Position numbers and translations under genes: made by a program. A stretch of DNA of 64,000 bases from Verrucomicrobiota bacterium (GTDB lineage: Bacteria; Verrucomicrobiota; Verrucomicrobiia; Palsa-1439). Below are positions 4,512-44,648 of the stretch, piece by piece (the first letter of the stretch is position 1; every line of letters starts with the position of its first letter). The DNA lies in contig VHCW01000001.1 of the NCBI GenBank assembly GCA_016871575.1, positions 35,731-99,730 on the forward strand, given 5' to 3'. Under the pieces are notes generated by a model that did no database searches, was not told the DNA's origin, and was given only the letters and a program-made list of their open reading frames with translations.

Positions 4512-5418
4512 AAACCTCTCCATTGAACTGAAGATCACCGACCGCTGCAACCAGCAGTGTTTCCACTGCATGAACGATGACCAGCCGTCGGCGGGACGCG
4601 ATCTCGACTGCGAATTGTTCCTCCGCCGGCTGGACGAATGGGCAAGCGGCCGCGCACAGTCCGCCGTCAACTTCACCGAAGTCCGCATGACCGGCGGCGA
4701 ACCGCTGTTGAACTTGCCGGCCGTGACCATCATCGGAGAGCGTTGTCGCCGATTGCAGGTTCCTTGCGGCATCAACACCAACGCGACGTTGCTCGATGAA
4801 CCGGCTCTCGCCCTTCTCCACGCCACCGGACTCTCGACCATCAAAGCCTCCTTCGACAGCCTCGACGAAGATGTCTGGCGCGCGATGCGCGGCTCCGGCC
4901 TTTCGCCGGCAAGGACTGCCGGAGGAATTCGCCGGGCTGTGGCTGCCGGTTTTCATGTCATTGTGCGGTTCACCTTGTGCGCGCACAATCGCAGCCAGTT
5001 GCTCCCCTGTTACCGGGCCGCCCGCGACTGGGGCGTCCACAAGTTCCAAGTCAAACCAATGATCCCCGCCGGTCGCGCCGCCGGCGCCGATTCATTTCTC
5101 GACATCCCCGAACTGCGCCGCGCCATTCAAGAACTCTCCGAAATCGTTTCCGGCCCGGCTGCCGCTCCCGAAATCCTTTGCTGGCCGCCGGACTACGCCG
5201 CCGGACTCGCGGCGCGGCCTTGCGGCAACATGACGAAGATGTACATCGGCACGGATGGAAGCGTGTTCGATTGCAACTACCTCAGCGACCCTCCGTTTGC
5301 CTCGCTGCGCGAGCAGAGCCTCGAAGAAGCCTGCCGCCACCGGCATCGTCGCACCGAAACAACAACCGGCGGGCACTGCGTGCTCGCCGGTTGTCCCGCA
5401 TGGTCGAGTTGTTGGTAA
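4501..5418 (+). CDS. Radical SAM enzyme with a Cys-rich SPASM/twitch-like C-terminal auxiliary domain.
   Basis: CNQQCFHC (Cx3Cx2C), MTGGEPLL, INTNATL. C-terminal Cys-rich stretch: YIGTDGSVFDCNYL....CRH...GGHCVLAGCPAWSSC. Confidence 0.75.
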   Translation: MPAENLSIELKITDRCNQQCFHCMNDDQPSAGRDLDCELFLRRLDEWASGRAQSAVNFTEVRMTGGEPLLNLPAVTIIGERCRRLQVPCGINTNATLLDEPALALLHATGLSTIKASFDSLDEDVWRAMRGSGLSPARTAGGIRRAVAAGFHVIVRFTLCAHNRSQLLPCYRAARDWGVHKFQVKPMIPAGRAAGADSFLDIPELRRAIQELSEIVSGPAAAPEILCWPPDYAAGLAARPCGNMTKMYIGTDGSVFDCNYLSDPPFASLREQSLEEACRHRHRRTETTTGGHCVLAGCPAWSSCW

Positions 5419-5587: not shown

Positions 5588-6901
5588 TTACACCAATTTG
5601 TCGCAGCCGGTGCTGATCGGCTCGAAGTGGCCGGGGCCGGGCTTGAGTTTTTCCTGCGGCGGCACAAGGTCCTGCTTGGAGCCGTTCATCAGCCAGTCCC
5701 ACGAAATCGTGCGGCCGGTGTAGGCGGCCGTGCGCAGGCCGACGGCCGTCAACGTGGTCTCGGCAATGCGCTTGCCGTGGTTGATGACCTTGCCGGCGCG
5801 GATGCTCTTGAGCATGTCAATGTGTTCCTGCTCCTGGCCGTTCACGCTTTGGCCCTCGTACTTCCACGGGTTCTCGCCGGTGATGGTGCCGTTGAGGTCG
5901 CTCGCCCCCTTGGTGCCGACGATTTTTTCGCCCATGCGATTGGTTCCGGGGCCGTGCCCGGTGAACGCGGTGCAACGGGCGCCGTTGGCGTATTCCATTT
6001 CGCCAAAGACGTGGTCCCAGATGTTGCCGTTGTATTTCTGCCAGTCGGCGTCGCTGCCGTCGTTGTATTTCTTGCAGACTTCCTTGGCGCTCTCGCTGTA
6101 GTCGCGGCACTGGCGTCCGCCGACGGCCATGAATTTCTTCGGCGGCCCGTCGAAACACCAGTTGAGCATGTCAATGTCGTGGATGGCCTGTTCGACGATC
6201 TGGTCGCCGCTGAGCCAGGTGAAATGATACCAGTTGTGGCATTGCCATTCGAGTTCGCTCATCCCTTCGCTGTCCTTGCGGTACCAGATGCCGCTGCCGA
6301 ACCAGTAACACTGTCCGCCGACGAGTTCGCCCATCTGCCCGGCGTGGATCCGCTTGAGCAACTCCACGCGGCTGAATTCGTGCCGGCGCTGCGTGCCGGC
6401 CACGATGGCCAGTCCTTTCTCCTCGGCGATCTTGGCCGCTTCGATGACCTGACGACAACCAACCACGTCAGTCGCCACCGGTTTCTCGGTGAAGATGTGC
6501 TTGGGCTTCGGCGCTTTGAGCGCGGCGAGCATCTGGCGCCCGCGAAACGCCGGCGCGGTGGCCATGACGAGCAGGTCGCACTCGGTCTGCGCCAGTTTCT
6601 CGTGGCAATCGAAGCCGTGGAAGATGTGGTCGTCCTTGATCTTGACGCGGTCCGCGTACTTCGGGTCCGCCTTCAATTTCTCGCGGCCGGTCATCGCTTT
6701 CTGCTCGAAGAGGTCGGCGCAGGCGATGACTTCGGTGCCGGGATCAGCGATGAGGCATTGGCGGATGGCGCCGTTGCCGCGCCCGCCGCAGCCAAGCCAG
6801 CCGACCTTGATGATGCCGGAGCCGGCGGCGTGAACGCGGTTCATGGCGCCGGTGACCAGGGCGGCGGCGCCGAGTGTTTGGGTGGTGGGTGTCGTTGACA
6901 T
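5588..6901 (-). CDS. Gfo/Idh/MocA family NAD(P)-dependent oxidoreductase with a twin-arginine (TAT) signal peptide.
   Basis: N-terminal signal followed by the Rossmann motif IIKVGWLGCGGRGNGA. An AAGGAG ribosome-binding site lies 7 nt upstream of the ATG at 6901. The + strand ORF 5627..6898 is a GC shadow. Confidence 0.85.
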   Translation of the reverse strand: MSTTPTTQTLGAAALVTGAMNRVHAAGSGIIKVGWLGCGGRGNGAIRQCLIADPGTEVIACADLFEQKAMTGREKLKADPKYADRVKIKDDHIFHGFDCHEKLAQTECDLLVMATAPAFRGRQMLAALKAPKPKHIFTEKPVATDVVGCRQVIEAAKIAEEKGLAIVAGTQRRHEFSRVELLKRIHAGQMGELVGGQCYWFGSGIWYRKDSEGMSELEWQCHNWYHFTWLSGDQIVEQAIHDIDMLNWCFDGPPKKFMAVGGRQCRDYSESAKEVCKKYNDGSDADWQKYNGNIWDHVFGEMEYANGARCTAFTGHGPGTNRMGEKIVGTKGASDLNGTITGENPWKYEGQSVNGQEQEHIDMLKSIRAGKVINHGKRIAETTLTAVGLRTAAYTGRTISWDWLMNGSKQDLVPPQEKLKPGPGHFEPISTGCDKLV

Positions 6902-38705: not shown

Positions 38706-40184
38706 TCAGCGCGCCGGGTGGTTGCGGAGCGCGTACAACCAGCCGTTGAACGTGGAAAAAAACAGCGTCTCATCCGCGGCCACCGCCGAGGAGAACACCG
38801 GCATCCCCAGCCGAACCGTATCAAGCACCTTCTTTTCCTTGCCGGCGGCCAGTATCCAGAAAGTTTTCATTGTCGGCAGGTAAATCTTGCCGTCAGCCAC
38901 CAACGTCGAGGACCAGAGCACTTCGCCGGTTTCGTGAATCCAATGGACGTGGCCGTTGTCTGCATCAAGACAATGGATTCGGCCGGCGATGTCGGCGACG
39001 TACAGCAGGCCGTCGGCGATGGAGACGGTGGACAACGTGCGGTCGAGTCCCTGATAACGCCAAATCTCTGTGCCTTGCGCGGCGTCCAGACACCAGAGCG
39101 CGCCGCGACCGCGGCCATGTTCGGGGTCGCGCCCGATGGGCACGTAGATGCGGTCGTTGTGCAGGACGGGACAGGCGACAATCGCGCTGGTCCCGGTGTA
39201 ACTGCTCTCGTTCTTCTTGTTGAGCGATTTCCGGAGCCGTTTATCGCCGAGCGAATACAGCGCTGCCCAGTTCAGGTTGCCGACCGGCCGCCGGTACTCG
39301 GTCGGAACACAGTCGAAACGCCACACGGTTTTCAACGTGGCGGCATCGAACGCGTAGCACCAGCCGTCGCCCGCGCCGAAAAAGAGCAACTTGCGTCCGC
39401 GCACCGTGCCGAGCGACGGCGTGGACCATTGGCCGTGAAAAATGTTCGGCCCGATCTCGCGGGCGTCATCGGCAGCCACGAGTTGTCCCGTGCGTTTGTC
39501 CAGCGCGATAACACTTGGCGCATCCGGCGCGGGCGTCGGACGGTCGTCGTAGTGGGGAGCCAGCGCATCGCGGTCGGTGCCGTTGGACGTGCAGACGTAC
39601 ACCAGGTCGCCATCCACGAGCGGCGAGCCGTTGCAGGCATCGGAGGGACGGATGCCGTACTTCCACAAGTCAAAACTCCAGATTCGCTGCCCCGTGTTGG
39701 CGTCGAGGCAGAGCACCTCGCAACGGTGATTGACGAAATAGACGCAATCAGCCTCGATGGTGGCGGTGGAAACGATGCCGAGATTGCTGGTGATCCAGCC
39801 CAGCATGAATTTCCGGCCCGGCTGGATTTCCCTGGGAAACACGCGATACGGCTCCTCGTATTGCCAGAGCACTTTCCCGGTGCGCGCATCGAGACACTTG
39901 AACGTTCCTTTCCTCGGCTCGCCCCCGCCCACGTACACCTTCCCGGCGGCGACGGACGGGGATGGATACATGACCATGTTGATCTTCACGCCCCAAGCGA
40001 CGTTGGTGGCGGTGCCGACGAGGACATGGCCCTTGGCATTGTTTTTCTCGCCAAAGGAAAACATCGCCGGAAGGTTTCGCTCCGCCGAGACCATGTTCTT
40101 GGAGTGCGACCCGCAAAACTCCGGCGAGTCGCCCGCCATCGCGGGCAAGGCCAATAACAGAAAAAGCAATTTCATTGGTGCCAT
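38706..40184 (-). CDS. PQQ-like beta-propeller repeat protein with a signal peptide.
   Basis: MAPMKLLFLLLALPAMA signal. Repeated ..G.VYVG/..DG.LY.. blades typical of PQQ/BamB-like propellers. Confidence 0.7.
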   Translation of the reverse strand: MAPMKLLFLLLALPAMAGDSPEFCGSHSKNMVSAERNLPAMFSFGEKNNAKGHVLVGTATNVAWGVKINMVMYPSPSVAAGKVYVGGGEPRKGTFKCLDARTGKVLWQYEEPYRVFPREIQPGRKFMLGWITSNLGIVSTATIEADCVYFVNHRCEVLCLDANTGQRIWSFDLWKYGIRPSDACNGSPLVDGDLVYVCTSNGTDRDALAPHYDDRPTPAPDAPSVIALDKRTGQLVAADDAREIGPNIFHGQWSTPSLGTVRGRKLLFFGAGDGWCYAFDAATLKTVWRFDCVPTEYRRPVGNLNWAALYSLGDKRLRKSLNKKNESSYTGTSAIVACPVLHNDRIYVPIGRDPEHGRGRGALWCLDAAQGTEIWRYQGLDRTLSTVSIADGLLYVADIAGRIHCLDADNGHVHWIHETGEVLWSSTLVADGKIYLPTMKTFWILAAGKEKKVLDTVRLGMPVFSSAVAADETLFFSTFNGWLYALRNHPAR

Positions 40185-40233
40185 CTTTATAAAACAGGCG
40201 GGCTTGCACAAGGCAGAATTGCCGGGTAATGCT

Positions 40234-41427
40234 GTGATTGTGGTGAAGCTGCTATTGCTGCTGGTTGCGTGCGTGTCCGTCCAAGCCATGGACGGCAAGG
40301 TCTTCTGTGGCTATCAAGGCTGGTTCAACGCCGAGGGCGATGGCGCCGAACGCGGCTGGACGCACTGGACGAAAGGCAAAGGCACACCGACCGCCGCCAA
40401 CATCAAGGTGGACCTCTGGCCCGATGTCTCCGAACTCGGCCCAGACGAACGCTTCGCCACCGGGCTGCGGTTCCCCGACGGACGCGTTGCCGAGGTGTTC
40501 AGCTCGTTCAAGCGCGAGACCGTGCTGCGCCATTTCCGCTGGATGCGCGACTACGGCATTGATGGCGCGTTCGTCCAGCGGTTTGCCGTCGGACTTCAAG
40601 ATCCGCGCGTCCGCCGGCATACGGACACAGTGTTGGCGCATTGCCGCGAAGGCGCAAAGCAATATCAACGCGACTACGTCGTGATGTACGACCTTACGGG
40701 CCTGCGTGCGGACCGTGTCAGCACAGTGCTCGATGACTGGCGGCAGCTCACCGTCACCAACGACACCGCCTACCTTCGACACCGCGGCAAACCGCTCGTC
40801 ACCGTCTGGGGCGTCGGCTTCAACGACGACCGCGCCTACACGCTCGCCGAGTGCCGCCAACTCGTCGAGGCGCTCAAACGCGGCGGCTGCTCCGTCATGC
40901 TCGGCGTGCCGACTTACTGGCGCGAATTGAAACGCGACGCCGTTGCCGATCCCGCGCTCCACGACATCATCCGGCTCGCCGACATCGTCAGCCCGTGGAC
41001 CGTCGGACGATACGCAGATGTCCAGAACCACGCCAAAAACACGCTCCCCGCTGACATCGCTTGGTGTCGCAAGAACAAGCTCGATTATCTGCCGGTTGTC
41101 TTTCCGGGATTCAGTTGGCACAACATGAAAGGCGACCAACTCGACAAGATTCCGCGCCGGCGTGGCGCATTCCTTTGGTCGCAGTTTGCCGCCGTCAAAC
41201 GCGCCGGGCTGAACGCCGCTTACGTGGCGATGTTCGACGAAGTGGACGAAGGCACCGCCATCTTCAAGTGCGAACCCCAACCGCCCGCTGGCTTTCTCGG
41301 ACTCGAAGGATTACCGAGCGACTACTACCTGCGCCTGACCGGCCTGGGCGGCAAACTGCTCCGCGGCAAGATTCCCACCACCGACCGGCCGCCCGGCTTG
41401 ACAAACGCACCAGCGCTGGTACGCTAG
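40234..41427 (+). CDS. Secreted putative glycoside hydrolase (GH99-like/WbsX-like family).
   Basis: Signal (V)IVVKLLLLLVACVSVQA with a probable GTG start, then ..KVFCGYQGWF..W..W. The family assignment is tentative. Confidence 0.5.
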   Translation: MIVVKLLLLLVACVSVQAMDGKVFCGYQGWFNAEGDGAERGWTHWTKGKGTPTAANIKVDLWPDVSELGPDERFATGLRFPDGRVAEVFSSFKRETVLRHFRWMRDYGIDGAFVQRFAVGLQDPRVRRHTDTVLAHCREGAKQYQRDYVVMYDLTGLRADRVSTVLDDWRQLTVTNDTAYLRHRGKPLVTVWGVGFNDDRAYTLAECRQLVEALKRGGCSVMLGVPTYWRELKRDAVADPALHDIIRLADIVSPWTVGRYADVQNHAKNTLPADIAWCRKNKLDYLPVVFPGFSWHNMKGDQLDKIPRRRGAFLWSQFAAVKRAGLNAAYVAMFDEVDEGTAIFKCEPQPPAGFLGLEGLPSDYYLRLTGLGGKLLRGKIPTTDRPPGLTNAPALVR

Positions 41428-41434
41428 CCCCGCA

Positions 41435-41503
41435 ATGAACCAAAACCTTAACCTGCTCGGTCTGCTGGCTCTGCCCCGAAAGCTTTCGGGGACGGTGGGT
41501 TAA
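41435..41503 (+). CDS. leuL: Leucine leader peptide (22 aa, 7 Leu) for attenuation control of leuA.
   Basis: atg aac caa aac ctt aac ctg ctc ggt ctg ctg gct ctg ccc cga aag ctt tcg ggg acg gtg ggt taa, translating to MNQNLNLLGLLALPRKLSGTVG. Confidence 0.7.
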   Translation: MNQNLNLLGLLALPRKLSGTVG

Positions 41504-41523
41504 GGTCTGCACTAGAAAAATCA

Positions 41524-41560
41524 ACCCACTGTCGCCGCGAGCGATGGTGGGTTTTTGTTT
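41524..41560 (+). terminator. Intrinsic terminator/attenuator hairpin (acccac...gtgggt followed by ttttgtttt) in the leuA leader.
   Basis: aacccactgtcgccgcgagcgatggtgggtttttgtttt. An upstream segment, ggtgggttaagg, can alternatively pair with aacccac (anti-terminator) or with aaccttaacc inside the leader ORF. Confidence 0.65.
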
Positions 41561-41596
41561 TCCATCACACTCGCGACGCTGTAGAAAGAGACCAAC

Positions 41597-43135
41597 ATGA
41601 GCGAACAAGTCTATATCTTCGACACGACGTTGCGCGACGGCGAGCAATGCCCCGGCGCGTCCATGAACACCCGCGAGAAACTCGAGGTCGCGCGCCAGCT
41701 CGCCCGCCTCAAGGTGGACATCATCGAGGCCGGCTTTCCCATCGCCAGCGACGGCGACTTCGAGGCGGTCAAGGCCATCGCGACGGAGATTCAGGGGCCG
41801 TGCATCGCTGCCCTGGCGCGGACGCACGAAAAAGACATCGTCCGCGCCGGAGAAGCGATCAAGCCGGCGGCAAAACGACGGATCCACACATTCAGCTCCG
41901 GCAGCGACATCCATTTGGAGACGATGCTCAAGATATCGCGCGCGGAGAACATCAAGCGTTCTGTCGCGGCGATAAAACTCGCCCGCCAGTTCACCGACAA
42001 CGTCGAGTATTCCGCGCAGGACACGACGCGTTCGGACCGCGAGTATCTCGTCGAGCTGTACACCGCCTGCGCCGAGGCCGGCGCGACCACGTTGAACATC
42101 CCCGACACCGTCGGCTACGCGATTCCGCACGAATACGGGGCGTTGATCGCGTTTCTCATCGAGCGGATCAAGGTGCCCGGCTTGATCTACTCCGTGCACT
42201 GCCACAACGACCTCGGCTTGGCCGCGGCCAACTCGCTCGCCGCCGTCAAGGCCGGCGCGCGCCAGATCGAGTGCGCCATCAACGGCCTCGGCGAACGCGC
42301 CGGCAACACCTCGCTCGAAGAAGTCGTGATGGCGATCAAGATGCGCCCCGAGGTCTTCGGCGGGGTGACGACCGGCATTGACACGCGCCAGATTTACCCG
42401 GCGAGCCGGCTCGTGTCGCACCTCACCGGCATGGTCGTGCAGCGCAACAAAGCCATCGTCGGCGACAACGCCTTCGCCCACGAATCCGGCATCCACCAGC
42501 ACGGCATCATCGCGAACCGTTGCAACTACGAGATCATGAGCGCCGAGGATGTCGGCCGCTCCAGCGAACTCACATGGGGCAAACACATGGGGCACCATGC
42601 TGTCCGCAAGAAACTCGCCGAGATGGGCTACACGCTCAGCGACGCCGAGATCAAGTCCATCACCGACAGCATCAAGGCGCTCGCCGACAAAAAGAAACAC
42701 GTGTACGACGAAGACGTCCGCGCCCTTGTGGAAGGCCAGTTCACCGAGGTGGTGCAGACTTGGAAACTCGACTACCTCAGCGTCATGACCGGCACCATCC
42801 CGACCGCCAGCGTCCGCCTCCTGAAAGCCGGCAAGAAAGAGCCGGTCGCCGACGCCGGCACCGGCGACGGCCCGATTGACGCCACGCTCAAGACCTTGGA
42901 TCGCATCACCGGCGTCAAGGGCAGCTTGATGGACTTCAACGTCGCCAGCGTCACGCGCGGCGAGGATGCCATCGGTGAAGTCAGTGTCCGCGTGGATTTC
43001 AACGGCCGCATCGTCACCGGCAAAGGCAGCAGCACCGACATCATCGAAGCGAGCGCACTCGCGTACTTGAACGCCCTCAACCGCCACCTCGACGAACAGC
43101 AAAGACGTTGCGCCGCCGATAAACCAACGCAGTAA
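41597..43135 (+). CDS. leuA: 2-isopropylmalate synthase.
   Basis: MSEQVYIFDTTLRDGEQCPGASM..., 512 aa. Confidence 0.92.
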   Translation: MSEQVYIFDTTLRDGEQCPGASMNTREKLEVARQLARLKVDIIEAGFPIASDGDFEAVKAIATEIQGPCIAALARTHEKDIVRAGEAIKPAAKRRIHTFSSGSDIHLETMLKISRAENIKRSVAAIKLARQFTDNVEYSAQDTTRSDREYLVELYTACAEAGATTLNIPDTVGYAIPHEYGALIAFLIERIKVPGLIYSVHCHNDLGLAAANSLAAVKAGARQIECAINGLGERAGNTSLEEVVMAIKMRPEVFGGVTTGIDTRQIYPASRLVSHLTGMVVQRNKAIVGDNAFAHESGIHQHGIIANRCNYEIMSAEDVGRSSELTWGKHMGHHAVRKKLAEMGYTLSDAEIKSITDSIKALADKKKHVYDEDVRALVEGQFTEVVQTWKLDYLSVMTGTIPTASVRLLKAGKKEPVADAGTGDGPIDATLKTLDRITGVKGSLMDFNVASVTRGEDAIGEVSVRVDFNGRIVTGKGSSTDIIEASALAYLNALNRHLDEQQRRCAADKPTQ

Positions 43136-43157: not shown

Positions 43158-44648
43158 TCAGGACGCAGGCGGCGCGACACTGGCGTCTTCTGTTCCCTCG
43201 GAAACGGGTGGTGCAGGAGCCGCTTCCTTCACCGGCGTATCGGGAGCCGGTGCCGGGTCTGGTGGCGCCAGTTCAGTTTCAGGTTTCGATTCTGGTTTGG
43301 CCTCAGCCGGCGGCTTGTTCTCCAACGCCCAGAGCCGGCCGTCGGCGAACTCGACGACGCTGCCTTCCATGATCAGCCAGTGCAGGTCGGCCATGAACCG
43401 GTCTTGATCGGCGATCTGGAGGTTGTCGGCAAGCTGTTTGCGGACGCTGTCGGGATGAGCGCGGAGGAAGGTGATGATCTTCTGGATCTGGTCGCTCAGG
43501 CCGTCGAGGCTCTCGACGCGTTTCGGTTTGATGTGGCTGACGTAGGTGACGCCTTTGCGGTGCTTGAAGAAGTGGAAACCATCGGGCCGGAGCCGGTCGC
43601 TGAGGGTCTGGGCGCTGCGCAACGGAAACCGCCATTCGCTGACGAAGGCGATACGCAACGCTTCACTCAGGGCCACCCATGTTTGTTGACGGCTGGCAAC
43701 GCCGCTGATCTGGAGTTCCGTGTTGCTGGTGACAAGCGCGTCCAGGTGTGTTTCGGCGAGGTGTTTCTCGACTTCCTCGCGCGAGGCGAACGCTTTCGGT
43801 TCGGGACAGAGGAGGCAGTGGAACTCGGTGACGAAGCTCTTGGACTCGACCCATTGTTTGACGACGGCTTCGTCCTTGACGGTCTGGATGCGGGAGCGGA
43901 ATTCGTCGAACGACATGTGCCGGAGGCGGCGTTGGTGGAAGCGGACGATGGTGGCCTGGTAGTCGTGGTAGTTGGACGGACCGAAGATTTCGCCGGTGAT
44001 GCTGCAACGGTTGACGGAAGCGAAGTTGCCTTTCGGCGGGTCGCAGGGTTTCTTTTCGGCGCGACAAAGTTTGTCGGCGTGCCGGCGGAAGACGTGGCGC
44101 AACGCCTCGTCCTTGCTTTGGAAAACGGTTTCGTCGGCGAGCGCGAGGAACAACGGGGCGCGCGTGCCGTCGGCGCCGGGCTTGAGGGCGAGTTTGAGGA
44201 CGTGGCGCTCGGGTTTGTTGAGGATGAGCTTGGCGACGTCGAAGAGGGCGTAGGCGCGCGGCGAATGTTTCATCGTCTCGATCATTGCGGCGAGGCCCTT
44301 TTCTTCGGGGAGGAAACTGATCTCGACGTTGGCCGGAGCGGGTGGCCTTCGCTCGATGGGCGGAGCCGGTCGGCGTTCCATTGGGCGATGTCCTTCGCGT
44401 CCGGGCGGGCGGTCGCGGCGCGGCGGTCCGCCTTCGCGGCGGGGTGGCCGGTCTCCCGGTGGCCGCGGCGGACGATCACCCTGTGGCCGCGGTGGGCGGC
44501 GGTCGCGGTCGCCTCGGTCGCGGCGGGGCCGGTCGGGATCCTCGCCGGCGTGGTTTTCGTAGGATTTGGGTGCGGACTTGAGCCATTCCGGAACGATGTT
44601 AAGTTCGTCCAGAGGCAAAGATTGGTTGTCGGGATTCGGCGTGGTCAT
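43158..44648 (-). CDS. Hypothetical protein with an Arg/Pro/Asp-rich low-complexity N-terminal region.
   Basis: RDRGDRDRRPPRPQGDRPPRPPGDRPPRREGGPPRRDRPPGREG imperfect repeats. The C-terminal ~330 aa are of ordinary composition. Confidence 0.5.
   Translation of the reverse strand: MTTPNPDNQSLPLDELNIVPEWLKSAPKSYENHAGEDPDRPRRDRGDRDRRPPRPQGDRPPRPPGDRPPRREGGPPRRDRPPGREGHRPMERRPAPPIERRPPAPANVEISFLPEEKGLAAMIETMKHSPRAYALFDVAKLILNKPERHVLKLALKPGADGTRAPLFLALADETVFQSKDEALRHVFRRHADKLCRAEKKPCDPPKGNFASVNRCSITGEIFGPSNYHDYQATIVRFHQRRLRHMSFDEFRSRIQTVKDEAVVKQWVESKSFVTEFHCLLCPEPKAFASREEVEKHLAETHLDALVTSNTELQISGVASRQQTWVALSEALRIAFVSEWRFPLRSAQTLSDRLRPDGFHFFKHRKGVTYVSHIKPKRVESLDGLSDQIQKIITFLRAHPDSVRKQLADNLQIADQDRFMADLHWLIMEGSVVEFADGRLWALENKPPAEAKPESKPETELAPPDPAPAPDTPVKEAAPAPPVSEGTEDASVAPPAS

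What the first reader, a model, noticed from the sequence alone, without database searches (positions are those of the whole stretch)
41428..41596. Textbook leucine leader-peptide attenuator upstream of leuA
A 22-codon ORF, MNQNLNLLGLLALPRKLSGTVG, contains seven Leu codons, six of them within nine codons. Downstream lie mutually exclusive pairings and then an intrinsic terminator. Segment aaccttaacc (inside the Leu codons) can pair with ggttaaggt. Segment ggtgggtt can pair with aacccac to form an anti-terminator. The terminator is the acccac..gtgggt hairpin followed by ttttgtttt. This is the classic ribosome-mediated attenuation layout. It is worth recording because leu attenuation is rarely documented outside Proteobacteria, and it supports the chosen leuA start.
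Basis: seen in the sequence. Interest (0 to 1): 0.65.

Follow-up and report, generated by a model that had tools for sequence, protein, structure and literature searches.

The report
Leucine leader-peptide attenuator before leuA
A short leucine-rich mini-gene, followed by RNA hairpins that exclude one another and a transcription stop signal, sits in front of the leucine-biosynthesis gene leuA of a Verrucomicrobiota bacterium; it is the classical "ribosome senses the amino acid" switch, conserved in dozens of relatives but in a phylum where it had not been catalogued.

Summary

**What is there**
- Window 41435-41503 (+) encodes MNQNLNLLGLLALPRKLSGTVG*. It is the only one of 469 short ORFs in the 64-kb window with at least 6 Leu in 9 codons.
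- An intrinsic terminator follows (stem 41523-41535/41541-41553, then UUUUUGUUUU).
- leuA starts at 41597.

**Conservation**
- The genome is Verrucomicrobiota.
- All 22 closest leuA loci from Verrucomicrobiia MAGs carry a homologous leader. So do about 30 metagenome contigs.
- Indels inside the ORF keep the reading frame.

**Support for each helix**
- Compensatory base changes support the terminator.
- They also support an 11-12 bp helix 1:2, which joins the first Leu codons to the stop-codon region.
- The antiterminator (2:3) rests on invariant complementarity and folding. Its covariation is weak.

- A conserved TTGAC-17-TGnTA promoter ends 7-11 nt before the leader ATG. No Shine-Dalgarno (SD) motif is present, so the leader is probably translated almost leaderless.
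- A fifth segment (41561-41575) pairs with terminator arm 4. Its role is unknown.

**Novelty**
- No Rfam family matches, and no paper in the library describes this in the PVC bacterial group (Planctomycetes, Verrucomicrobia and relatives).
- Verdict: a new member of a known kind, of moderate interest. Leucine response has not been tested experimentally.

The parts
41398..41403 (+). Candidate promoter -35 box, TTGACA
   Evidence: TTGAC[A/G/T] is present in all 41 rows of the 43-sequence alignment that reach this position. Flanks further upstream are not conserved. The consensus scan did not call it because the -10 box is weak. Its function is inferred.
41417..41425 (+). Candidate extended -10 box, TGgTACGCT
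   Evidence: TGn precedes an invariant TA in 39/43 relatives. The spacer to the -35 box is 17 nt in 40/43 and 16 nt here. The -10 hexamer ends 7-11 nt (9 nt here) before the leader ATG. This implies a 5' UTR of about 0-4 nt. No transcription start site (TSS) was measured.
41435..41503 (+). Leader ORF, 22 codons plus TAA: MNQNLNLLGLLALPRKLSGTVG*
   Evidence: Homologous ORFs occur in 22/22 genomic relatives and about 30 metagenome contigs. Indels inside the ORF are 3, 6 or 9 nt in 21/22 relatives. An SD-like motif lies upstream in only 1/43.
41447..41473 (+). Control codons: Leu at codons 5, 7, 8, 10, 11 and 13 (CUU, CUG, CUC, CUG, CUG, CUG)
   Evidence: One search gives the codon list. Leu is kept at these aligned positions in relatives using CUU/CUC/CUG/CUA/UUG.
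41445..41456 (+). Region 1, the 5' arm of helix 1:2, covering codons 4-8 of the leader
   Evidence: It pairs with 41495-41506 in the MFE of the terminated-length RNA. Across 36 sequences, 11 aligned pairs are 95.3% paired and 5 pairs show changes on both sides; 0/500 shuffles reach this.
41474..41491 (+). Hairpin P1a inside the leader ORF (codons 14-19): CCCCGAA/UUCGGGG around AGCU
   Evidence: On alignment A1 it is 96.6% paired, 6 of 7 pairs have compensatory changes, and 0/500 shuffles reach this. The peptide varies here, so the constraint is on the RNA.
41491..41506 (+). Region 2. It pairs with region 1 (via 41495-41506) or with region 3 (via 41491-41501), and contains the leader stop codon TAA at 41501-41503
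   Evidence: GGG at 41497-41499 is invariant in 43 sequences. The middle base of the stop codon covaries with the third base of the Leu5 codon: CG 16, UG 12, UA 11.
41523..41535 (+). Region 3, the 5' arm of the terminator and the 3' arm of the antiterminator
   Evidence: CCCA is invariant. It pairs with region 2 in RNA that ends before region 4 (-27.7 kcal/mol together with P1a), and does so in all 22 relatives.
41541..41553 (+). Region 4, the 3' arm of the terminator
   Evidence: Terminator helix: 98.6% paired with 5 compensatory pairs over 39 cells. On 43 sequences: 97.7% paired, 70 cells.
41554..41561 (+). U-tract of the terminator. The full run UUUUUGUUUU starts at 41552
   Evidence: The T-run is invariant in relatives.
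41561..41575 (+). Region 5, complementary to the terminator loop plus arm 4 (41536-41551). Its function is unknown
   Evidence: It forms in the MFE of the read-through leader and as an isolated hairpin (-19.8 kcal/mol, z -3.2). RNAduplex gives -16 to -24 kcal/mol in all 22 relatives. Values are z -2 to -5 against shuffles in 18 of them and weaker (z -0.85 to -1.8) in four. The sequences differ between sub-lineages.
41585..41591 (+). Shine-Dalgarno-like AAAGAGA of leuA
   Evidence: It aligns with the GAAAGGA conserved in relatives 5-10 nt before the leuA ATG.
41597..43135 (+). leuA (2-isopropylmalate synthase), the only gene under this leader. The next gene is convergent
   Evidence: Pfam HMGL-like 6e-91, HCS_D2 and LeuA_dimer. 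ORF 43158-44648 lies on the minus strand.

Best explanation
This is a leucine-responsive, ribosome-mediated transcription attenuator controlling a monocistronic leuA.

**Start of transcription and translation.** Transcription starts a few nucleotides (0-4) upstream of the leader AUG, from a conserved TTGACA-16-TGgTACGCT promoter. A ribosome therefore has to initiate on an almost leaderless RNA.

**Leucine plentiful.** When Leu-tRNA is abundant, the ribosome runs through the six Leu codons (codons 5-13) to the UAA at 41501-41503. That stop lies inside region 2, so the ribosome occludes region 2. If no ribosome loads at all, region 1 (41445-41456) pairs with region 2 (41495-41506) around hairpin P1a. 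In both cases region 3 (41523-41535) stays free until region 4 (41541-41553) emerges. The 13-bp terminator then forms and RNA polymerase stops in the U-tract at about 41555-41561.

**Leucine scarce.** When charged tRNA-Leu is limiting, the ribosome stalls on Leu codons 7-11 and covers region 1. Region 2 (41491-41501) then pairs with region 3 as soon as region 3 is made. This pre-empts the terminator, and polymerase reads into leuA.

**Shown.** Every sequence element is present. The ORF, the promoter boxes and the helices are conserved. Helices 1:2, P1a and 3:4 covary. The alternative folds are thermodynamically plausible.

**Inferred.** The transcription start, translation of the ORF, stalling, the kinetic competition, and the response to leucine.
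For: **Anatomy**
- The elements are present at the stated coordinates.
- This is the only Leu-run short ORF among 469 in the window.
- leuA identity is confirmed by Pfam.

**Conservation**
- All 22 closest Verrucomicrobiia leuA loci have the leader plus terminator. Covariance model (CM) R1 scores them at 69-138 bits.
- 29-30 further copies in metagenome contigs carry the leader, and nearly all with enough downstream sequence are followed by leuA.
- R1 finds a single significant copy in the window (104.6 bits).

**Evidence for translation**
- The ATG is conserved, and indels are multiples of 3 in 21/22 relatives.
- Leu is kept through synonymous codons.
- The stop codon is fixed inside region 2.

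**Helices**
- 3:4 is 98.6% and 97.7% paired with 5 compensatory pairs.
- 1:2 is 94-95% paired with 4-5 compensatory pairs.
- P1a is 96.6% paired with 6/7 pairs compensatory.
- The core of 2:3 is 87.5-88.6% paired, against 37-49% for slid controls.
- 2:3 is the predicted fold of the pre-terminator RNA in all 22 relatives.

**Ribosome-mask folding**
- Masking a ribosome footprint at Leu7, 8, 10 or 11 flips the window's MFE from terminator to antiterminator.
- Masking at the stop codon gives the terminator.

**Promoter**
- The boxes are conserved and there is no SD motif.

**Analogous elements**
- Analogous Leu or Ile/Leu/Val (ILV) leaders with terminators occur in other PVC lineages.
Against: - There is no experimental or transcriptomic evidence. 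The TSS, the terminated leader RNA and the leucine response are all inferred.
- The antiterminator shows almost no compensatory change. This is expected, since region 3 has two partners, but it is weak as proof. In 28/43 relatives it carries a C.A mismatch at the position that is U-A in the window.
- Equilibrium folding with a masked ribosome keeps the terminator in most relatives and at Leu5, 13 and 17 in the window. The model therefore depends on co-transcriptional kinetics that cannot be computed here.
- Efficient and timely initiation on a 0-4 nt 5' UTR is unproven for Verrucomicrobiota.
- Region 5 has no role in the classical model.
- In Streptomyces, mutating Leu codons of a leuA leader did not behave as classical attenuation predicts (PMC1262725, reporting earlier work). 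Layout alone is therefore not proof.
Confidence: 0.85

Rival explanations
1. The same RNA acts as a terminator/antiterminator switch, but it is set by something other than a translating ribosome, such as a leucine-responsive RNA-binding protein, a small ligand or uncharged tRNA. Under this reading the Leu-rich ORF is a by-product of the RNA sequence.
For: For the actinobacterial leuA LEU element, a protein-binding mechanism was proposed because Leu-codon mutations did not give classical behaviour (PMC1262725). Part of the Leu-codon region is itself constrained by helix 1:2.
Against: - The reading frame, the ATG and the stop position are conserved through 3/6/9-nt indels.
- Leu codons 8-13 lie outside any conserved helix, yet stay Leu through synonymous changes.
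- There is no T-box or riboswitch match in Rfam even at E<=10.
- The alignments reveal no obvious conserved unpaired block of the kind a ligand pocket would need.
Confidence: 0.06
2. Two-layer control. The five-segment leader regulates termination as in the main model. In addition, it regulates what happens to read-through transcripts (leuA translation, Rho loading or mRNA stability) through the alternative 3:4 versus 4:5 pairings.
For: - Helix 4:5 is predicted in all 22 relatives with lineage-specific sequences. It is stronger than shuffles (z -2 to -5) in 18 of them and weaker in four.
- It is part of the MFE of the full read-through leader together with 2:3.
- It is stable as an isolated hairpin (-19.8 kcal/mol).
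- In some relatives (L001, L014, L015, L021, L017) the leuA SD is predicted to be less accessible when 3:4 is formed than when 4:5 is formed.
Against: - The SD-accessibility difference is inconsistent across relatives, and it is reversed in the window itself (0.74 OFF against 0.54 ON).
- Region 5 is transcribed after the termination decision, so it cannot affect that decision.
- There is no evidence for Rho utilisation here.
Confidence: 0.25
3. The hairpin and T-run are simply the terminator of the upstream gene (ORF 39757-41427), and the Leu-rich ORF in the spacer is coincidental.
For: The upstream ORF ends at 41427, only 7 nt before the leader ATG, on the same strand.
Against: - Relatives have different upstream neighbours, some on the opposite strand, yet keep the TTGAC-17-TGnTA boxes, the ORF and the terminator.
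- The element always travels with leuA.
- Helix 1:2 and P1a covary.
Confidence: 0.01

Closest known systems
Enterobacterial leu operon attenuator (leuL leader peptide; Rfam RF00512 Leu_leader)
   Same: Same logic and same effector. A short leader ORF with a run of Leu codons is followed by alternative 1:2 / 2:3 / 3:4 pairings and an intrinsic terminator ahead of leuA. (The mechanism is from established textbook knowledge, recalled and not tested here.)
   Different: - No sequence or structure similarity: RF00512 is not among the matches even at E<=10.
- Here the Leu codons are interspersed (L-N-L-L-G-L-L-A-L). The enterobacterial leader has four consecutive Leu codons (recalled from memory).
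- The leader seems to lack a 5' UTR and SD.
- It controls leuA alone, not leuABCD.
- It has an extra hairpin inside the ORF and a fifth segment.
E. coli trp operon attenuator (trpL), the archetype of the mechanism
   Same: Four-segment layout. Region 1 overlaps the control codons, a ribosome at the stop codon blocks region 2, and 2:3 excludes 3:4. The distance from the last control codon to the end of region 3 (about 62 nt here) is of the same order (recalled).
   Different: - A different amino acid.
- The stop codon lies inside region 2 rather than between regions 1 and 2.
- The 1:2 helix is long-range (about 38 nt apart) and encloses another hairpin.
- The trp leader has a normal SD (recalled).
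Actinobacterial leuA leaders (LEU element; leuL1 of Streptomyces lividans, Corynebacterium)
   Same: A Leu-rich leader peptide sits directly upstream of a monocistronic leuA and is transcribed leaderless (PMC8079986; PMC1262725).
   Different: The actinobacterial leuA leaders are reported to lack a typical Rho-independent terminator. They are proposed to form a pseudoknot whose base stem pairs the Leu codons with the leuA SD (PMC1262725). Here a strong, covarying intrinsic terminator is present, and no such Leu-codon/SD stem appears in the predicted folds.
   Same: A Leu-run mini-ORF between a promoter-like region and leuA. It is followed by a terminator in the PVC and Schlesneria cases.
   Different: The sequences differ and the peptides are shorter. 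The window-family model R1 scores them only 18-27 bits, against 69-138 bits for true members. They are analogous families, or very distant ones, and not the same family.
ILV-rich leader attenuators upstream of ilvB-ilvN-leuA in Kiritimatiellia/Victivallales loci (L032, L023-L026)
   Same: Same superphylum. The terminator arm motif is similar (AACCCAY...RTGGGTTTTTT), with a leader ORF rich in branched-chain residues.
   Different: It controls a multigene ilvBN-leuA operon. The leader mixes Val, Leu and Ile, and it scores only weakly with R1 (14-33 bits).

Membership tests
Classical ribosome-mediated transcription attenuator of an amino-acid biosynthetic operon | A short leader ORF enriched in codons for the amino acid made by the downstream gene | tested here: met
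   7 of 22 codons are Leu, six of them within codons 5-13. It is unique among 469 short ORFs in the window. It is conserved in 22/22 relatives.
Classical ribosome-mediated transcription attenuator of an amino-acid biosynthetic operon | An intrinsic terminator between the leader ORF and the first structural gene | tested here: met
   A 13-bp stem plus U-run, -20.8 kcal/mol, z -4.67. It is 97.7-98.6% paired with 5 compensatory pairs.
Classical ribosome-mediated transcription attenuator of an amino-acid biosynthetic operon | An antiterminator (2:3) that is mutually exclusive with the terminator | tested here: met
   41491-41501/41523-41533 shares region 3 with the terminator. It is the predicted fold of the pre-terminator RNA in the window and in all 22 relatives. 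The core is 87.5-88.6% paired, but covariation is weak.
Classical ribosome-mediated transcription attenuator of an amino-acid biosynthetic operon | Region 1 overlaps the control codons and pairs with region 2 (anti-antiterminator) | tested here: met
   41445-41456/41495-41506. It covers codons 4-8, is 95.3% paired and has 5 compensatory pairs.
Classical ribosome-mediated transcription attenuator of an amino-acid biosynthetic operon | The leader stop codon is placed so that a terminating ribosome blocks region 2 | tested here: met
   UAA at 41501-41503 lies inside region 2. The position is conserved, as UGA or UAA, in 21/22 relatives. Masking a ribosome at the stop codon gives the terminator fold.
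Classical ribosome-mediated transcription attenuator of an amino-acid biosynthetic operon | The leader ORF is translated, and read-through rises on starvation for the amino acid | not testable with these tools
   Only indirect evidence is available: frame-preserving indels and synonymous Leu codons. Testing needs reporters, Term-seq or ribosome profiling.
Rfam RF00512 Leu_leader (and RF01743 leu/phe leader) | A match to the family covariance model at or near its gathering score | tested here: not met
   cmscan of 41000-42000 at E<=10 returned only four sub-threshold chance matches (three miRNA families and RT-15). No leader family appeared.
T-box leader | A match to the T-box covariance model (specifier loop, T-box sequence) | tested here: not met
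   No RF00230 hit at E<=10.
Actinobacterial LEU element | The Leu-codon run pairs with the leuA Shine-Dalgarno box at the base of a pseudoknot, and there is no terminator | tested here: not met
   A strong terminator is present. Predicted folds of the read-through leader do not pair the Leu codons with the SD at 41585-41591. The definition is taken from PMC1262725.
Leaderless leader-peptide genes (as mapped in Actinobacteria) | The transcription start coincides with, or lies within a few nt of, the leader start codon, and there is no SD | tested here: inconclusive
   The conserved -35 and extended -10 boxes end 7-11 nt before the ATG. An SD-like motif occurs in 1/43. The TSS itself was not measured.

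The most novel reading that the evidence does not exclude
This would be a previously uncatalogued, PVC-wide style of attenuator. The leader peptide is translated from an essentially leaderless transcript. A conserved fifth segment (41561-41575) re-pairs terminator arm 4 in read-through RNAs. That locks them in the ON fold and adds a second regulatory layer (translation, Rho access or stability) beyond the classical four-segment switch.
Probability: 0.2. Interest if true: 0.5.

Novelty: new member of a known kind. Interest (0 to 1): 0.35.

Why it matters
**Regulation in a poorly studied phylum.** The finding gives a concrete, testable regulatory element in Verrucomicrobiota, a phylum with almost no characterised gene regulation.

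**Wider distribution of the mechanism.** Leader-peptide attenuation of branched-chain amino-acid genes is common across the PVC group: Verrucomicrobiia, Kiritimatiellia/Victivallales and Planctomycetes. This runs against the Rfam-based view that amino-acid leaders are essentially gamma-proteobacterial (PMC3766115).

**Practical uses.**
- The 43-sequence alignment and model R1 could seed a new RNA family.
- They can fix leuA start annotations in MAGs.
- They flag a small translated ORF that gene callers miss.

**Mechanistic questions raised.**
- The apparent leaderless initiation raises the question of how ribosome loading is synchronised with polymerase.
- The conserved 4:5 helix has no assigned function.

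The mechanism itself is textbook, so the advance is incremental.

Tried and rejected
1. **Rfam.** A scan at E<=10 over 41000-42000 gave only chance miRNA-type hits, so the element belongs to no known family.
2. **Consensus promoter scan.** It found nothing. The promoter was recognised only from conservation.
3. **Equilibrium folding with a masked ribosome footprint.**
   - It flips to the antiterminator in the window for stalls at Leu7, 8, 10 and 11.
   - It does so in only some relatives.
   - I therefore treat it as illustration and not proof.
4. **Leu SD sequestration in the OFF fold.** I tested whether region 5 or the U-tract sequesters the leuA SD. Predicted accessibilities are inconsistent across relatives and reversed in the window. 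The idea is not adopted.
5. **Other PVC and Planctomycete Leu leaders.** I asked whether L030, L035-37 and L039-46 belong to the same family. R1 scores of 18-27 bits say no.
6. **Cys-rich Poribacteria mini-ORFs.** I considered that those with the same scaffold are cysteine attenuators. The downstream gene is DAHP synthase and the peptide ends in W/WW, so an aromatic (Trp) leader is more likely. L089 and L171 remain unexplained.
7. **P1a on alignment A2.** This could not be counted, because MAFFT shifted the window row there. The A1 result is used instead.
8. **** failed on a string-length error and was repeated.
Full report
**1. Observation**

- The ORF 41435-41503 (+) is listed by the mechanical ORF finder and translates to MNQNLNLLGLLALPRKLSGTVG*. 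It has seven Leu, six of them in codons 5-13.
- The pattern scan finds a terminator-like site, AACCCACTGTCGC-CGCGA-GCGATGGTGGGTT followed by TTTGTTTTCC (13 pairs).
- The downstream ORF 41597-43135 is LeuA: HMGL-like 6e-91, HCS_D2 and LeuA_dimer.
- The next gene is convergent, so the leader serves leuA alone.
- Among 469 ATG/GTG/TTG ORFs of 12-40 codons on both strands of the 64-kb window, this is the only one with at least 6 Leu in 9 codons.

**2. Folding of the window sequence**

- The RNA as it would exist at the termination point (41433-41561) has an MFE of -51.8 kcal/mol (z -3.95). It consists of three parts:
  - a 12-bp helix 1:2 (41445-41456 with 41495-41506);
  - hairpin P1a (41474-41480/41485-41491), enclosed by helix 1:2;
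  - the terminator (41523-41535/41541-41553).
- RNA that ends before region 4 (41470-41535) folds into P1a plus an 11-bp antiterminator, 41491-41501/41523-41533, at -27.7 kcal/mol.
- The terminator alone is -20.8 kcal/mol.
- When a ribosome footprint is masked at Leu codons 7, 8, 10 or 11, the MFE switches from terminator to antiterminator. Masked at the stop codon, it gives the terminator.
- The stop codon UAA (41501-41503) lies inside region 2.
- The geometry is therefore that of a classical attenuator.

**3. Organism and relatives**

- The best LeuA matches in one-genome-per-species contigs are Verrucomicrobiota/Verrucomicrobiia MAGs, at 68-86% identity.
- All 22 of these (L001-L022) carry a homologous mini-ORF about 95-100 nt upstream of leuA (161 nt in L012, which has an insertion). 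The consensus is MNRNLNLLLALLAL..(T/A)(A/V)G*, and a terminator follows. L007 is partly masked by Ns but is still found by the covariance model.
- A pattern scan of metagenome contigs returned 119 stretches. Of these, 29-30 have the same Leu leader, and nearly all with enough downstream sequence are followed by leuA.
- L110 is the closest to the window: MNQNLNLLGLLVLLLRRRTVG*.
- A covariance model built from 36 leaders (R1) gives these scores:
  - 104.6 bits (E 5.5e-27) for the window, with no other significant copy in the window;
  - 69-138 bits for L001-L022.

**4. Evidence that the ORF is read as codons**

- In the 22-sequence alignment, all indels inside the ORF are 3, 6 or 9 nt in 21 sequences.
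- The exception, L004, has a 19-nt insertion that brings its own in-frame stop followed by a second copy of region 2.
- Leu positions are kept with CUU, CUC, CUG, CUA and UUG. This includes codons 8-13, which lie outside any conserved helix.
- The peptide is variable where hairpin P1a lies (PRKLSGT, LTGRT, RLASET, LLTRQT), while the hairpin itself is kept. There the constraint is on RNA.

**5. Helices tested on alignments not fitted to a structure (MAFFT)**

| Helix | Alignment (sequences) | Cells paired | Pairs changed on both sides | Shuffles reaching this |
|---|---|---|---|---|
| Terminator 3:4 | A1 (22) | 98.6% | 5 pairs, 39 cells | 0/500 |
| Terminator 3:4 | A2 (43) | 97.7% | 5 pairs, 70 cells | 0/500 |
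| P1a | A1 (22) | 96.6% | 6 of 7 pairs | 0/500 |
| Helix 1:2 (8 pairs) | A1 (22) | 94.3% | 4 pairs | 0/500 |
| Helix 1:2 (8 pairs) | A2 (43) | 95.1% | 4 pairs | 0/500 |
| Helix 1:2 (11 pairs) | A3 (36) | 95.3% | 5 pairs, 21 cells | 0/500 |

The shuffle column refers to percentage paired and covariation score.

Two pairs in helix 1:2 are worth noting.
- The third base of the Leu5 codon covaries with the middle base of the stop codon: C-G 16, U-G 12, U-A 11.
- The third base of the Leu7 codon covaries with a region-2 base: G-C 18, A-U 7, G-U 5.

The antiterminator is the weakest point.
- Its 8-bp core is 87.5-88.6% paired, against 37-49% in slid controls. Almost nothing varies, because region 3 (AACCCA) is invariant.
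- In 28/43 sequences one position is a C.A mismatch. The window has U-A there.
- That same region-2 base is the one that is Watson-Crick paired in helix 1:2. The family thus seems to trade 1:2 strength against 2:3 strength.
- Per-sequence folding of the pre-terminator RNA nevertheless gives the 2:3 helix in all 22 relatives.

**6. Promoter and leaderless start (inferred)**

- Upstream of the leader the alignments are unconserved except for two boxes:
  - TTGAC[A/G/T], present in every row that reaches it;
  - TGnTA, 17 nt later (16 nt in the window), present in 39/43 rows.
- The -10 hexamer ends 7-11 nt (9 nt here) before the leader ATG.
- An SD-like motif precedes the leader ATG in only 1 of 43 sequences. 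In contrast, leuA has a conserved GAAAGGA-type SD.
- Neighbouring upstream genes differ between relatives, so this is a dedicated promoter.
- In the window it overlaps the last codons of ORF 39757-41427.
- A start 6-9 nt after the -10 box would leave a 0-4 nt 5' UTR. Leaderless Leu leader peptides upstream of leuA have been mapped by RNA-seq in Streptomyces lividans (PMC8079986).

**7. An extra segment**

- In the fold of the read-through leader (41428-41600), the MFE is P1a + 2:3 plus a hairpin in which 41536-41551 (terminator loop and arm 4) pairs with 41561-41575. The U-tract lies in the loop of that hairpin.
- An equivalent complement lies directly after the U-tract in all 22 relatives.
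  - Its sequence follows the lineage-specific terminator stem.
  - Duplex energies are -16 to -24 kcal/mol.
  - z is -2 to -5 against dinucleotide shuffles of the downstream region in 18 of them. It is weaker (z -0.85 to -1.8) in L015, L020, L021 and L022.
- The new metagenome variants appear to show it too, by inspection only (e.g. CCCGGCAUCGUGGCGGCG in L149).
- Because it is transcribed after the decision point, it cannot influence termination.
- I tested whether it changes leuA SD accessibility. The predictions are inconsistent and reversed in the window. Its role is unexplained.

**8. Comparison with what is known**

- Rfam release 15 has no match at E<=10: no Leu_leader, no leu/phe leader, no T-box.
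- Full-text searches found no paper linking Verrucomicrobia or Planctomycetes with leader-peptide attenuators.
- Actinobacterial leuA leaders share the leaderless Leu peptide. However, they lack a terminator and are proposed to work differently (PMC1262725).
- Within the loci fetched here, analogous but non-homologous elements occur:
  - Leu leaders with terminators in other Verrucomicrobiota;
  - Leu leaders with terminators in Schlesneria (Planctomycetes);
  - Val/Leu/Ile-rich leaders upstream of ilvB-ilvN-leuA in Kiritimatiellia/Victivallales loci.
- The mechanism is therefore the classical one. The family is new to the catalogues, and the phylum is new for this mechanism.

**9. Verdict**

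- Observation: confirmed.
- Interpretation: supported.
- Most likely mechanism (confidence about 0.85): leucine-dependent ribosome stalling on codons 5-13 of a nearly leaderless 22-codon ORF decides between the 2:3 antiterminator and the 3:4 terminator ahead of leuA.
- Novelty: a new member of a known kind.
- Interest: moderate to low (0.35). The leaderless start and the conserved 4:5 helix are the only unusual aspects.
- None of the dynamic steps (TSS, translation, stalling, leucine response) has been observed. The experiments that would settle them are listed under next steps.

Noticed in passing
It is 96.6% paired with 6/7 pairs compensatory in relatives. It could be a polymerase pause hairpin, or a spacer that brings regions 1 and 2 together. 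In the 'CCCCGAC' sub-lineage its 3' arm (GUCGG) can also pair with the distal part of region 3.
   Followed up: partly
window 41561-41575 (pairs with 41536-41551): A fifth segment lies directly after the U-tract and is complementary to the terminator loop plus arm 4. It is present in all 22 relatives with lineage-specific sequence. No function is assigned. The SD-masking test was inconsistent.
   Followed up: partly
L004:2875-2900 and L110 (minus strand, about 6830-6870): Two relatives carry a 19-23 nt insertion that duplicates region 2 (GGYGGGTTWA...GGCGGGTTAAGG). In L004 the leader stop codon moves into the insertion.
   Followed up: no
L032:346-507, and L023-L026 about 2.3 kb upstream of leuA: In Kiritimatiellia/Victivallales loci, leuA follows ilvB-ilvN. 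In L032 Pfam shows TPP enzyme and ALS small-subunit domains. The operon is preceded by a Val/Leu/Ile-rich leader ORF (L032: MNTSLSIVTAAVVVSVVLRVLVVRLVRPARVAMGIGS*) and a terminator, AACCCATCGCG...CGATGGGTTTTTT.
   Followed up: partly
L049-L052 around 1630-1770: Poribacteria loci have a mini-ORF, MHCCCICAPMVGWWRL* / MHSCCICVPMMGWR*, plus a terminator upstream of a DAHP synthase gene that precedes leuA. It is probably an aromatic/Trp leader-peptide attenuator.
   Followed up: partly
L089 (minus strand, oriented 5040-5240) and L171 (minus strand, oriented 130-340): Metagenome contigs matching the same region-2/terminator pattern carry Cys-rich mini-ORFs instead: MSTLFTFGPCICRVCRGMVRARCSG* and MTRSFIPAICISCRCQRGTVRACTLG*. 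L089 has a TTGACA promoter-like box. The downstream genes were not identified. These may be cysteine-responsive attenuators on the same scaffold.
   Followed up: no
L001:2770-2800; L083 and L140 downstream of the attenuator: A palindromic element, GTAGGAGCGAATTGCA(A)TTCGC, occurs upstream of the promoter in L001 and between the attenuator and leuA in L083 and L140. It looks like a small dispersed repeat.
   Followed up: no
L012:2900-2990: One relative has an insertion of about 70 nt between region 5 and the leuA SD. It forms a long GC-rich hairpin, GUAGGCUGCUUCUGUGAAGCGGCGCGCAGACACGCCGACUCGCAGAGUCGGCCUAC.
   Followed up: no
window 41514-41553, minus strand: The terminator is preceded by an A-rich tract (AGAAAAATCA). 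The reverse strand therefore also scores as terminator-like, and model R1 gives a weak reverse-strand hit at 41515-41614. No convergent gene ends here, so this is probably just the symmetric A-tract/U-tract form of the terminator.
   Followed up: partly
window 39757-41427: The upstream 556-aa ORF has no Pfam domain. Its last 10 or so codons overlap the conserved leuA-leader promoter boxes. Whether its annotated end is real was not examined.
   Followed up: no
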